IMG/VR virus record: IMGVR_UViG_2778261154_000009 | Location: 1 to 7,277 of that record | Length of the DNA: 7,277 nt | Direction: 5' to 3' (one strand) | Source of the DNA: a virus | Taxonomy: Duplodnaviria > Heunggongvirae > Uroviricota > Caudoviricetes | Part shown: piece after piece, positions 2,122 to 7,118 of the stretch | How positions within the stretch are numbered: the first letter of the stretch is position 1 | How the letters are laid out: each line of letters begins with the position of its first letter | Position numbers and translations under genes: made by a program | Notes under the pieces: model-generated | The model's input: the letters and a program-made list of their open reading frames with translations, nothing else | Databases searched by the model: none | Told to the model about the DNA's origin: nothing

Positions 2122-3072
2122 CTACCAGTTCAGTAACCTGGGGTTGCTGTAAGCCTCCTTAAAAGCCGCTTTAATGTGACTTTTATTCAGGGATGTGCCT
2201 GCACCTTTTGCCGCCAGCCACGCATGATTCAGTGTGTGAGTTAATACACGCAATCCCCCGGGCTTTTCGGCTACCCTCATCAGCAGGTCCAGCTCATCTT
2301 CCTGTGTTACTCCCCATGCTTTGGCTACAGCCATCACATCGGTCTTTTTTACTTTGCGCAGTTGTTTTGTCATGGCAAAACGGCTGAACAGACGGGCCAG
2401 TTCATCAGTCCCACGACGGGTGGCATCCGCCATCTGTTTCGGGTTGCCAATTAAAACCATCCCCACGCCAGTGGCATCCTGAATGGCGCGTAATTGCTCC
2501 AGACCATCCACACTTAAGTGATCAGCTTCATCAATAATCAGAAGGGGGTTAACACGGCCACTGGTTTCTTTACCACCACCCAGTTTTCTGCGAATGGCGC
2601 GGGTTATATTCCCCTTATTTCTTCCCGGATTATTAATTTCCAGCGCATATGCTATTTCAAGGAGGCATTCCGTTACGCTCGAATGTGCCGGAGCAAGAGT
2701 CACCATCCAGGCATTAGCTGTCCTGCGACAATATTCCCGGGCAGCAAAGGTTTTTCCGACACCCGGTACGCCAACAACAACACTGATAATCCCGAGTGAG
2801 CGCACTGTTTTAAACAGTTCATGCAAATCACAAAATGTCTGGGTCTTCACAACGCCGGGGGTACCTGACAAATTCTGCCCTTTCTGCCAGACCCGATACC
2901 ATTCCTGTAATTTGTCATACATGCCTTCAACATTGCCTCTGTACTTTCCTTTACGAAGATCAGAAAGTGTTGCCGGAGACATTCCGGCTTCATCAGCAAT
3001 ATCTTCCTGAGACTTGTCGCCCTCGTTAATCAAAGCGTTAATAGTGTTGAAAACATCATCAATATCAGTCAT
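2122..3072 (-). CDS. B: Mu B-like transposition ATPase (target DNA activator), 316 aa
   Basis: Walker A GVPGVGKT and Walker B LLIIDEADHL; N-terminal HTH-like segment (DEAGMSPATLSDLRKGKY); SD GAGGAA 6-7 nt upstream of ATG 3072-3070; located directly downstream of the transposase gene. Confidence 0.9.
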   Translation of the reverse strand: MTDIDDVFNTINALINEGDKSQEDIADEAGMSPATLSDLRKGKYRGNVEGMYDKLQEWYRVWQKGQNLSGTPGVVKTQTFCDLHELFKTVRSLGIISVVVGVPGVGKTFAAREYCRRTANAWMVTLAPAHSSVTECLLEIAYALEINNPGRNKGNITRAIRRKLGGGKETSGRVNPLLIIDEADHLSVDGLEQLRAIQDATGVGMVLIGNPKQMADATRRGTDELARLFSRFAMTKQLRKVKKTDVMAVAKAWGVTQEDELDLLMRVAEKPGGLRVLTHTLNHAWLAAKGAGTSLNKSHIKAAFKEAYSNPRLLNW

Positions 3073-3147: not shown

Positions 3148-5244
3148 TCAGGCCAGCGGATCATCTTCTTCCTGCATGGCAAAAAGTTTTTGCATCCCCA
3201 GCCGGAAATCGCGTTCAAATTCTTCGTCATGCTCTTCTTCATATTTCGGTTGCTGAACTGCCACCACATTACCAACCGGGCGATAAACATTACTCAGCCA
3301 GGGTTCAGCCTGTTTGTGTTCCAGAATCTGAATACCTTCATCTTCAGCATCACGAATTTTTTCCTCAGCGCGTTTGCGCATTCCTTTAATACGCTGCTGT
3401 TGTTTGTGATATTCAGCACTGACAGCAAAGGCTGCGCGTTTATTGCCGTTCCATATCGCCTCACAGATAAAGCTGCCGTCCTTGCGACGTACCGTAATTC
3501 GCTCGGCGTCATGAATGTCATAACTGATAAGCACTTTGCGACCGTGTTCGTCACGCAACTCCGGCGCGTAGTAAATATTGTTCAGCCACTGAATTTCGCA
3601 GCGTCTTACCGGTCGTTCCACCATTGGGCGGAACATGTCGCGCAGCTCAAGATCACTCAGCCACTCAATTTCGGTGTCTTCTTCTGCCAGGCGTTTTTTT
3701 CTGAACTCTGTCGGGCTGTAATGCCGTCCGTTCGGTTTCATCGGCAGCTCAGAATGCGGGCGGTTGTTGTACCATTCCACGCCTTCACGAATAGCCTCAA
3801 TAAGCTCCGCCCACGATGGCAGCTCGCGCATTGCCGCTTTCTGGCGGTCGTTCAGAGGCTTGTCCTGTTGCAGGGCGTTAAACGCTGAACGCAGATCACG
3901 GTTAAGTACACGCAACGATTCCCGGTCAGCACCCTTGCCAAAATAGGTGCGATACCTCCTGGCTATACGCATCGGCAGTGTCCGGTTCAGGCGTTCAATA
4001 ATGCCGCGTCCCTGTGGATTACCGGCAATACCGGTAGGGTGTTTAATCCCCAGGCGTGGCAGAATACCCACGACCTCTTTGTCCAGCATGTCAGCCGTTT
4101 CACCGGAACCGTTATCCGAGTAATACAGGAACGGTTTTCCGTGGTTGCGAATGCCGTGCTGTATCGCACCGGCAACGGCGAACACGTTTTCGGCAAGGTC
4201 AAGACTCCAGCCAACAACAAACCGTGTTCCACCATCGATCACAAACGTGACTTCCGGTGAGAATGGACGCCCGTGGATCGGATGCGCACATTTCAGCTTC
4301 ATACCGTGACCGTCACCAATCCAGACATAATTCACCGGCATAGCTGTCCAGTCGCGGCGGGTGAATCCTTCAAGCTGACGGTATTCACTGCCGGTAACGC
4401 GCCCTTTTTGTTTCACCACTTCCGGCAGTTTTTTCATGGCATACCGGACAACATCATAGGAAGGCATCACCTCCAGCATGTACGGTTCGTCCGCATGGCG
4501 ACGCTGCCATTCTGCGACAAAATCCTCGTAGGCTTCTGACATGGGTCTGCCGTTCACCTGGCGATACTGCGCCAGAAATTCAGGCAGCCAGCTGATTTCT
4601 TCCGGTTTTATTTCGTCGCGTTTTCCCGGTGCCAGTAACAGCAGCCGTTCGGCGGCGTTCTGCGACTGGTTGTATTTCAGAACCCACTGGTAAAGTGGAT
4701 CGCGGCTGATAGTACGATTAGCGCCACGTTTTGCATTGGCGTTAACTGCGGCCTGTTGCAGGCGCTCCGGCAGCTCACCTTTACGGGCTTTTTCAACAAG
4801 AAAGTTAATGGCTTTCAGTCGCCCGAGGTTACCGGCGCTTTCCAGCTTCAGCACTTCCACCACCAGCGCAGCTCTTGCTTCAGATACCCGGCGCTGGTTT
4901 TCGGTCAGCGCATTCAGGCGTTCTTCCATCAGTTGTGGAGAACCGCGATATGCTTCGATTGCCTGGACAGCGTCAGGATTGCGTGTTTTTCTGGTAACAG
5001 CTTTCACTTCAGAAACATTGTTCTCTGTAGCCACCAGCTGTTCCACATAGCGTTCACGCAGTGCCTTTCGTGTTATTTCAGGCAGACAATCAATGTGGTA
5101 CTCAATGGCTTTTGTGCCTTCCCGACGGCGACTAACGTCACCAAGATCACGAGAAAAACGCTGTAACGCCTGTCGGATGCCTTTTGTGGTGGCTGGCATT
5201 CCTGGTACGCCGAGCAGGTCATTTACGGTAACGTACGACTGCAT
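3148..5244 (-). CDS. A: Mu A-like DDE transposase, 698 aa from ATG 5244
   Basis: N-terminus (LLGVPGMPATTKGIRQ...GTKAIEYHIDCLPEITRKAL) resembles the MuA enhancer-binding winged-helix domain. DDE core candidates WIGDGHG, YYSDNGSG and GIIERLNR. Start at 5244 chosen for SD AGGAAGG; the 721-aa track ORF start at 5313 has no SD and overlaps ner. Confidence 0.9.
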   Translation of the reverse strand: MQSYVTVNDLLGVPGMPATTKGIRQALQRFSRDLGDVSRRREGTKAIEYHIDCLPEITRKALRERYVEQLVATENNVSEVKAVTRKTRNPDAVQAIEAYRGSPQLMEERLNALTENQRRVSEARAALVVEVLKLESAGNLGRLKAINFLVEKARKGELPERLQQAAVNANAKRGANRTISRDPLYQWVLKYNQSQNAAERLLLLAPGKRDEIKPEEISWLPEFLAQYRQVNGRPMSEAYEDFVAEWQRRHADEPYMLEVMPSYDVVRYAMKKLPEVVKQKGRVTGSEYRQLEGFTRRDWTAMPVNYVWIGDGHGMKLKCAHPIHGRPFSPEVTFVIDGGTRFVVGWSLDLAENVFAVAGAIQHGIRNHGKPFLYYSDNGSGETADMLDKEVVGILPRLGIKHPTGIAGNPQGRGIIERLNRTLPMRIARRYRTYFGKGADRESLRVLNRDLRSAFNALQQDKPLNDRQKAAMRELPSWAELIEAIREGVEWYNNRPHSELPMKPNGRHYSPTEFRKKRLAEEDTEIEWLSDLELRDMFRPMVERPVRRCEIQWLNNIYYAPELRDEHGRKVLISYDIHDAERITVRRKDGSFICEAIWNGNKRAAFAVSAEYHKQQQRIKGMRKRAEEKIRDAEDEGIQILEHKQAEPWLSNVYRPVGNVVAVQQPKYEEEHDEEFERDFRLGMQKLFAMQEEDDPLA

Positions 5245-5245
5245 A

Positions 5246-5497
5246 TCACGACACCTTCCTGATAAATCCATCGTTACGATACCGGCTGGGCCAGATGATT
5301 TCTGGCGGTACACCTATAGCGTCAGAAATTACGCGTTCGTATTTTTTGTTTGGTGTGCGAACTACCGCTTTCAGTGAATCCTGAGCATAACCAGCATGGA
5401 GTGAAAGCTCCCGGAAGGAAGACCACCCGTTATCTTTGAGCGCCAGCTGAATCTTCAGCGAAGGCCAATCGCGGTCACTATCTTCTCTTTGTCTCAT
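5246..5497 (-). CDS. ner: Ner-like DNA-binding protein (Mu Ner / Nlp family), 83 aa
   Basis: Contains the Ner/Nlp signature (DWPSLKIQLALKDNGWSSFRELS...PEIIWPSRY); SD AAGGAAAG before ATG 5497-5495; stop TGA is 1 nt from the A start (TGATATG). Confidence 0.85.
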   Translation of the reverse strand: MRQREDSDRDWPSLKIQLALKDNGWSSFRELSLHAGYAQDSLKAVVRTPNKKYERVISDAIGVPPEIIWPSRYRNDGFIRKVS

Positions 5498-5526
5498 CTT
5501 TCCTTTAACCTACAAAATTACCCGCG

Positions 5527-5548
5527 CGGATATCCGGTCGGATATCCG
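5527..5548. promoter_or_regulatory. Two tandem copies of the perfect 10-bp palindrome CGGATATCCG: candidate operator sites
   Basis: Exact copies at 5527-5536 and 5539-5548, 12 bp start-to-start, in the ner-repressor intergenic region just downstream of the candidate early promoter. Confidence 0.5.
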
Positions 5549-5557
5549 TATGGATAA

Positions 5558-5586
5558 AGATTAAGATACCAAAGATTCCTTGTAAA
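5558..5586 (-). promoter_or_regulatory. Candidate early promoter (Pe-like) for ner-A-B
   Basis: Minus-strand TTTACA (5586-5581), 17-bp spacer, TAATCT (5563-5558). Predicted start lies just upstream of the palindromes. Sequence-pattern call only. Confidence 0.35.
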
Positions 5587-5629
5587 GGGTTCTTTGGTGT
5601 TTTTATGGTTTATTTTTTAATTTCATTAT

Positions 5630-5642
5630 TTATCAATGAATT
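5630..5642. promoter_or_regulatory. IHF consensus match (WATCAANNNNTTR)
   Basis: TATCAATGAATTA at 5630-5642, preceded by an A/T-rich tract, between the divergent repressor and ner starts. Mu has an IHF site in its operator region. Confidence 0.4.
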
Positions 5643-5661
5643 AGATAGAAAGGAACCAAGA

Positions 5662-6225
5662 ATGAGAAAAGCACCCCAAGGTTCTTTTCCTGCCGATGGA
5701 AAAGAACCGATTATCGAAAGAATCTTTAGGTTAGTAGAACGATACCCTTCAAGAAATGCGGCTGCTCGGGCATGGGGGATCAATGAAGGCACTTTAAAAA
5801 ATTATTACAACAGGCGGGATTACGCACCGATACCACGCCCGCATCAGTTAAAAAAGATAGCAGAAAGCGAAAATGTTACCTTGGAATGGCTCATGACGGG
5901 AGAGGGTGATGTTGAACTAAAAGATTCCAAAGAACCCAAAAAAGAGAATGCGGATAATGTTGATGCTCAAATTCTAATGTTCTTGTCATTTCTTAAACCA
6001 CAAGAAAAACAACAAGTAGCTGATGTTCTTGGGAGAAAAGGAGCGGAGCAATTACTCATTCTTCTGGATGAGCACATCCAAGAGTTGCACGCTCTAGTTG
6101 GAGTTCGTAGAGCCATAGCGTTAAGCCTTGGTAATTTGCCAGACGAAAAGGTTAGAGAGATTTACGCGTTGTCCGAAGCTAAGGGCGATCACTTAAATCT
6201 ACCTCAGAAAGCAGCCAGCGCATAA
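5662..6225 (+). CDS. c: Prophage repressor (c-like): XRE-type HTH N-terminus with a Mu-repressor-like C-terminal region, 187 aa
   Basis: SD AAAGGAA 8-9 nt upstream of ATG 5662; the track ORF start at 5605 lacks an SD. N-terminus has an XRE/Cro-CI HTH pattern (SRNAAARAWGINEGTLKNYY...LEWLMTGEG). C-terminal segment resembles the Mu Repc C-terminal region as I recall it. Divergent from ner, in the Mu c position. Confidence 0.7.
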   Translation: MRKAPQGSFPADGKEPIIERIFRLVERYPSRNAAARAWGINEGTLKNYYNRRDYAPIPRPHQLKKIAESENVTLEWLMTGEGDVELKDSKEPKKENADNVDAQILMFLSFLKPQEKQQVADVLGRKGAEQLLILLDEHIQELHALVGVRRAIALSLGNLPDEKVREIYALSEAKGDHLNLPQKAASA

Positions 6226-6348: not shown

Positions 6349-6483
6349 GTTATCTTGAATGTTTTATTGATATCGAACCGTTTAACATTTTTGGACTCGC
6401 TTTATCTTGAAAACCTTGAGTTCCTAACTTGTTGATTCCAATCTATTCCCGTCTTTTTTAATCTCTTCCCGGTTATCTTGAAT
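6349..6483. repeat. Three direct repeats of TTATCTTGAA in the prophage terminal non-coding region: candidate transposase end-binding sites (attL L1-L3-like)
   Basis: Core TTATCTTGAA at 6350-6359, 6402-6411 and 6473-6482; the outer two copies are identical over 12 bp (GTTATCTTGAAT). Read inward, each contains TTCAAGATAA, which carries the TTCA element of the Mu end-site consensus. Confidence 0.5.
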
Positions 6484-6500
6484 AAATTACCTAGTCATAA

Positions 6501-7118
<618 letters not shown>

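What the first reader, a model, noticed from the sequence alone, without database searches (positions are those of the whole stretch)
5662..6225. Repressor appears domain-swapped: XRE-type HTH N-terminus on a Mu-repressor-like C-terminal region
In Mu, the repressor and transposase A share a related N-terminal DNA-binding domain and compete for the same operator/enhancer. Here A keeps the Mu-type N-terminus, but the repressor N-terminus is a classic XRE/Cro-CI HTH ending in LEWLMTGEG. The C-terminal 90 residues look Mu-Repc-like by my recollection. If correct, immunity specificity is decoupled from the transposase enhancer-binding domain.
Basis: partly seen in the sequence, partly recalled or inferred. 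Interest (0 to 1): 0.6.

Follow-up and report, generated by a model that had tools for sequence, protein, structure and literature searches.

The report
Mu-like prophage repressor with swapped DNA-binding domain
The immunity repressor of this E. coli Mu-like prophage joins a Cro/CI-type DNA-binding head to the tail domain of the phage Mu repressor, and database searches show this hybrid layout is the commoner one among Mu-type repressors, so it is a real but fairly ordinary case of module shuffling.

Summary
Window 5662-6225(+) encodes a 187-aa protein at the Repc position of a Mu-like prophage (B, A, ner on the minus strand; 164-bp control region; prophage end near 6497, inside astE).

- **N-terminal domain.** Residues ~17-79 form a five-helix Cro/CI (XRE) HTH. 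It shows no similarity to the N-terminus of the prophage's own transposase A.
- **Transposase A.** A does keep the Mu-type winged helix.
- **C-terminal domain.** Residues ~98-187 are homologous to the Mu Repc C-terminal region. Evidence is reciprocal PHROG profile hits, an hhalign match, and BLASTP E 2e-20 to 4e-24 against proteins that carry a Mu-type winged helix in front of the same domain.

So "domain-swapped" is right. It is not exotic, though. Among 50%-identity representatives with this C-domain, about 65 have XRE heads, 20 have Mu winged-helix heads and one has both.

A 31-bp palindrome (5568-5598) tracks the repressor HTH and spans a candidate early-promoter -35. It is the likelier operator.

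Repressor and ner-A modules assort independently, which partly supports "decoupling". This is a new variant of a known kind, of moderate interest.

The parts
5662..6225 (+). Repressor gene at the Repc position: 187 aa plus stop codon, RefSeq WP_001224023.1 'hypothetical protein'.
   Evidence: Full-length hit to phrog_3037 'transcriptional repressor', E 1e-43. 32 homologous clusters in Enterobacterales.
5698..5919 (+). N-terminal Cro/CI (XRE, Phage_CI_repr-like) HTH domain, residues ~13-86. Helices at 17-25, 31-38, 42-50, 60-70 and 74-79. The probable recognition helix is 42-50 (EGTLKNYYN).
   Evidence: Invariant N41, T44, N47, Y48 and Y49 in the family alignment.
5920..5952 (+). Lysine/glutamate-rich linker, residues 87-97. 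Predicted disordered; its length varies across the family.
   Evidence: pLDDT below 50 at residues 87-97. Indel-rich alignment columns 101-125.
5953..6186 (+). All-helical C-terminal domain homologous to the Mu Repc C-terminal region, residues ~98-175. Conserved motif LsFL..-E-..L..vL-RKG-.E..L.LLD ... LP-E-VREI.
   Evidence: No solved or predicted fold relative was found.
6187..6222 (+). Disordered C-terminal tail ending KAASA. It aligns with the ...KKAV end of Mu Repc. ClpXP recognition is inferred only.
   Evidence: Alignment A3: the tail K-x-A-[SGV] is near-invariant in both families. pLDDT below 50 at 181-187. The Mu Repc C-terminal ClpX determinant is as cited in PMC10584840.
5568..5598 (.). 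31-bp imperfect palindrome ACCAAAGATTCC-TTGTAAA-GGGTTCTTTGGT. Best candidate for the repressor's operator; its 7-bp spacer holds the candidate -35 of the early promoter.
   Evidence: Mantel correlation with the repressor HTH r 0.48, p 0.0008; with Ner r 0.12; with the A N-terminus r 0.06. 7 of 14 arm pairs change on both sides across 14 loci.
5519..5556 (.). Three tandem 14-bp palindromes TAYCC-N4-GGATA at a 12-bp period. Candidate Ner operator and/or transposase (enhancer-type) sites.
   Evidence: Conserved in all 14 loci with a compensatory switch in the middle site (TATCC..GGATA to TAACC..GGTTA). Tracks the A N-terminus (r 0.43, p 0.0014) and weakly Ner (r 0.28, p 0.049), not the repressor HTH (r -0.06).
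5558..5586 (-). Candidate early promoter Pe reading towards ner-A-B: -35 TTTACA (reverse complement of 5581-5586), 17-bp spacer, -10 TAATCT (reverse complement of 5558-5563).
   Evidence: Read from the sequence and alignment A4/A5, where L010 has TTGACA at this position. It scores 8 of 12 and so falls below the scan tool's threshold. Inferred only.
5666..5689 (.). Second palindrome inside codons 2-10 of the repressor gene: GAAAAGCACC-ccaa-GGTTCTTTTC. Possible auxiliary operator, or a by-product of conserved codons.
   Evidence: The right arm matches the locus-specific right arm of the 31-bp palindrome exactly in 6 loci and within one base in 2 more, of 14 in all. Its spacer is 4 bp rather than 7.
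5246..5497 (-). ner-like gene (83 aa, HTH_35), divergent from the repressor gene.
   Evidence: PF13693 E 1e-13. phrog_769 E 5e-23.
3148..5244 (-). Transposase A (698 aa from the RefSeq start). The Mu-type winged-helix enhancer-binding domain (I-alpha equivalent) is in residues ~1-62, nt ~5059-5244.
2122..3072 (-). MuB-like AAA+ transposition protein.
   Evidence: PF09077 E 1e-23.
6349..6497 (.). Prophage c-end (attL equivalent). Three GTTATCTTGAAT-type repeats at 6349-6360, 6401-6412 and 6472-6483 are probable transposase end-binding sites. The prophage ends near 6497 (...CA), followed by the 3' part of astE.
   Evidence: Other Mu-like prophage ends match up to window 6499. AstE domains lie in 6567-7118.

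Best explanation
The gene encodes the lysogenic (immunity) repressor of a Mu-like transposable prophage, built from two modules of separate ancestry.

**Modules**
- **Head.** A Cro/CI-type five-helix HTH domain (residues ~17-79), most like the Phage_CI_repr type.
- **Linker.** A flexible segment joins the two domains.
- **Body.** A helical C-terminal domain that Mu Repc also carries. In Mu this region mediates oligomerisation and ends in a ClpX-sensitive tail.

**Proposed mechanism (inferred)**
1. C-domains oligomerise.
2. Paired HTH heads bind the 31-bp palindrome at 5568-5598. Its arms flank the candidate -35 of the leftward early promoter, so ner-A-B transcription is blocked.
3. A second site at the start of the repressor gene may add cooperativity or autoregulation.
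4. Induction probably runs through the C-terminal tail and ClpXP, as in Mu, and not through RecA-stimulated self-cleavage, because there is no S24 peptidase domain.

Transposase A keeps a Mu-type winged-helix N-terminus that is unrelated to the repressor's head. Repressor and transposase therefore cannot recognise the same sites through homologous domains as they do in Mu. Any interference at an enhancer would be steric.

The same C-domain is found on XRE heads (the majority), on Mu winged-helix heads, and on both in tandem. The DNA-binding head is thus an exchangeable immunity-specificity module.
For: **Shown**
- Gene, position and synteny.
- XRE fold of the head, with no winged-helix signal.
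- C-domain homology to Mu Repc: reciprocal PHROG hits at E 3e-12 and 1e-4 and hhalign E 8e-5.
- A profile built from window-type C-domains alone retrieves 13 of 20 winged-helix-type representatives at library-scale E<=1e-3.
- BLASTP E 2e-20 and 4e-24 to P0065 and P0061, which have Mu-type heads.
- Architecture census: 59 window-type XRE, 6 other HTH_3, 20 Mu winged helix, 1 with both.
- The A N-terminus is homologous to the MuA and Repc DNA-binding domain and unrelated to the repressor head.
- Independent assortment of the repressor and ner-A modules.
- The 31-bp palindrome co-varies with the repressor HTH, and its arms change symmetrically.
- No Peptidase_S24 or Phage_CI_C hit at E<=1.

**From the literature**
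- Mu Repc is degraded by ClpXP through a C-terminal determinant.
- Repc and MuA N-termini are homologous in Mu and D108 (reference list).
Against: - No experiment links this protein to repression.
- Direct pairwise similarity to Mu Repc itself is weak (E 0.024), and hhalign probability is only 61%.
- Pfam PF07022 is below its cut-off for this protein.
- The C-domain model has only moderate confidence (pLDDT 74) and no structural relative. Oligomerisation and ClpXP sensitivity are therefore transferred from Mu by homology only.
- The operator assignment rests on 12 related loci and Mantel correlations of r 0.4-0.5. The S sites also correlate weakly with the whole repressor N-domain (r 0.31, p 0.02).
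- The candidate promoter is sub-threshold.
- The census profile was seeded with 11 window-type and 5 Mu-type sequences, which may inflate the XRE share.
Confidence: 0.75

Rival explanations
1. The repressor does bind the tandem CGGATATCCG / TAYCC-N4-GGATA palindromes (5519-5556). On this reading the 31-bp palindrome belongs to another factor, or both sets are repressor operators, analogous to O1-O3 of Mu.
For: - The palindromes are highly non-random, symmetric, and conserved in all loci.
- The repressor recognition helix is also well conserved, with N41, T44, N47, Y48 and Y49 invariant.
- S correlates weakly with the whole repressor N-domain (r 0.31, p 0.02).
Against: - S does not track the repressor HTH segment (r -0.06). 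It tracks the A N-terminus (r 0.43, p 0.0014) and Ner (r 0.28).
- Window and L007 share the GGATATCC subtype and a 92%-identical Ner, yet have divergent repressors. Window and L004 share repressor HTH residues 39-50 (GINEGTLKNYYN), yet differ in S subtype.
- The sites lie downstream of the candidate promoter, where Ner acts in Mu (own knowledge).
Confidence: 0.2
2. The C-terminal resemblance to Mu Repc is convergent or compositional, reflecting leucine-rich helices. On this reading the protein is just another XRE regulator with an unrelated helical dimerisation domain, and no shared module was exchanged.
For: - Pairwise BLASTP to Mu Repc gives only E 0.024 over 33 residues.
- hhalign probability is 61%.
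- No structural confirmation was obtained.
- There are weak spurious-looking hits to HEAT, MgtE_N and YfeC-like families.
Against: - Independent reciprocal profile hits lie in the same register at the same C-terminal position.
- Intermediates bridge the two families: P0065 and P0061 have Mu-type heads and C-domains 38-49% identical to the window's, at E 2e-20 and 4e-24. The match includes the tail (DHFNLTDKQANA versus DHLNLPQKAASA).
- All examined members sit at the Repc position of Mu-like prophages.
Confidence: 0.05
3. The protein is a 186-CI/P2-C-type or lambda-CI/LexA-type repressor that merely sits in a Mu-like prophage. It would then be induced by an antirepressor or by RecA-mediated self-cleavage.
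For: - The best Pfam hit is Phage_CI_repr (PF07022).
- Foldseek lists 186 CI (2fjr) and P2 C (2xcj) among the matches.
- Some NCBI records name homologues 'bacteriophage CI repressor'.
- Other transposable phages do carry lambda-CI-like repressors.
Against: - The match to 186 CI covers only the 75-residue N-domain.
- There is no hit to Phage_CI_C or Peptidase_S24 at E<=1.
- The C-half matches the Mu Repc family instead.
Confidence: 0.05

Closest known systems
Phage Mu / D108 repressor Repc (c), PHROG 7148; the N-terminal domain is in Pfam PF02316
   Same: - Same genome position: the last gene at the c-end, divergent from ner-A-B across a ~160-bp control region.
- Similar size (187 versus 196 aa).
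- Homologous C-terminal helical domain and K-x-A-x tail.
- Presumably the same role in maintaining lysogeny.
   Different: - The DNA-binding head is a Cro/CI five-helix HTH, not the winged helix that Repc shares with MuA.
- The repressor therefore cannot recognise transposase (enhancer) sites through a homologous domain.
CI-like repressors of other transposable phages: Pseudomonas D3112/DMS3/MP22 and B3-like Fc02 RepC, and Bacteroides hankyphage RepC_HP
   Same: - Cro/CI-type HTH head at the Repc position of a Mu-like genome.
- Residues 2-106 are ~30% identical to the MP22 and DMS3 c repressors.
- These repressors are described as lambda-CI-like in PMC9936078 and PMC12135933.
   Different: The similarity stops after the head. 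The C-half here belongs to the Mu Repc lineage and is not a lambda-CI-type C-terminal domain.
Coliphage 186 CI / P2 C immunity repressors (Pfam PF07022 Phage_CI_repr)
   Same: - Closest Pfam family for the head, including the W-L-x-T-G-x-G ending.
- Fold match to 2fjr and 2xcj.
   Different: - The score is below the PF07022 cut-off for this protein, although relatives pass it.
- There is no 186-type C-terminal domain.
E. coli YfeC-like regulators (Pfam PF07037)
   Same: Weak profile matches of the first C-domain helices (L..L...E...L...L.RKG) to the end of the YfeC-like model. They occur in Mu Repc, in the window protein and in several relatives.
   Different: Only Mu Repc, P0100 and P0107 reach or pass the cut-off. 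For the window protein E is 0.11. No functional inference is possible.

Membership tests
Mu Repc family (PHROG 7148) | N-terminal winged-helix DNA-binding domain homologous to MuA I-alpha (Pfam PF02316) | tested here: not met
   No PF02316 hit at E<=1. No similarity to the prophage's own A N-terminus. hhalign aligns only the C-domains. Foldseek finds Cro/CI folds only.
Mu Repc family (PHROG 7148) | C-terminal helical (leucine-rich) domain with a K-K-A-V-type tail | tested here: met
   phrog_7148 positions 77-171, E 3e-12. hhalign E 8e-5. Bridging proteins at E 2e-20 and 4e-24. Tail aligned in A3.
Mu Repc family (PHROG 7148) | Encoded at the c-end of a Mu-like genome, divergent from ner-A-B | tested here: met
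   The same layout is seen in 15 related loci.
Mu Repc family (PHROG 7148) | Oligomerisation through the C-domain and ClpXP-dependent inactivation | not testable with these tools
   Inferred from homology only. The Mu data are as cited in PMC10584840.
Cro/CI (XRE) HTH superfamily; Pfam PF07022 Phage_CI_repr | Five-helix HTH fold | tested here: met
   AF2 helices at 17-79 with pLDDT ~90. Target-normalised TM 0.63-0.76 to 434 Cro, P22 c2, SinR and P2 C.
Cro/CI (XRE) HTH superfamily; Pfam PF07022 Phage_CI_repr | Score above the Pfam gathering threshold (22 bits) | tested here: not met
   17.7 bits, E 0.0047. Relatives P0059, P0064, P0077 and P0133 pass at 26-41 bits.
186 CI-type repressor | C-terminal oligomerisation domain Phage_CI_C | tested here: not met
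   No such Pfam hit at E<=1. The 2fjr match covers 75 columns of the N-domain only.
Lambda CI / LexA-type repressor | C-terminal Peptidase_S24 self-cleavage domain | tested here: not met
   No S24 hit. The C-half is all-helical.
PHROG 3037 (uncharacterised 'transcriptional repressor' family) | Full-length profile match | tested here: met
   E 1.3e-43 over residues 2-184 against profile positions 3-188 of 189.

The most novel reading that the evidence does not exclude
The XRE-head plus Repc-C-domain layout is the ancestral and prevailing repressor of Mu-like phages. On this reading the textbook Mu/D108 repressor is the derived form: its lineage replaced, or first supplemented, the XRE head with a copy of the transposase's enhancer-binding winged helix. 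P0107 carries both heads in tandem and P0061 carries two winged helices; they look like such intermediates. Direct repressor-transposase competition at the enhancer would then be a late, lineage-specific innovation and not a general principle of transposable phages. In phages like this one the enhancer-type sites (perhaps the TAYCC-N4-GGATA array) and the operators are separate elements that recombine independently.
Probability: 0.3. Interest if true: 0.55.

Novelty: new variant of a known kind. Interest (0 to 1): 0.4.

Why it matters
Mu is the model for how a transposable phage couples lysogeny to transposition. Its repressor and transposase share a DNA-binding domain and compete at the operator/enhancer. 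This locus and its roughly 65 representative relatives show that the Repc C-terminal module is usually driven by an unrelated Cro/CI head. In these phages immunity specificity can be exchanged without touching ner or the transposase N-terminus.

This gives three practical results:
- a natural test bed for asking whether enhancer occlusion by the repressor is needed for stable Mu-type lysogeny;
- a definition of an unannotated domain, since neither the window protein nor its close homologues hit any Pfam model over the C-domain, and RefSeq calls the protein hypothetical;
- specific operator candidates for experiments.

It is not a new principle. Modular repressor evolution is well known.

Tried and rejected
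2. **PDB sequence search with the family profile.** Nothing below E 0.09.
3. **SfMu as a characterised relative.** Rejected, because its repressor is D108-type.
4. **NCBIfam.** Only a far sub-threshold RstR hit.
5. **Promoter scan of the control region.** Nothing was found inside 5498-5661 at the tool's threshold. The promoter I propose is therefore hand-read and sub-threshold.
6. **Half-site GGKTCTTTKG in the window.** 4 hits against 2 expected, which is not significant. The idea of an extended half-site array inside the gene is unproven.
7. **The 206-aa ORF starting at 5605.** Rejected in favour of 5662, because the aligned homologues with a called start begin at the equivalent codon (MRK, MKK, MNK and similar; two loci lack a start codon there) and an AGGA lies 9 nt upstream.
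8. **Literature searches.** I found no description of this hybrid architecture. The library lacks most older subscription papers on Mu.
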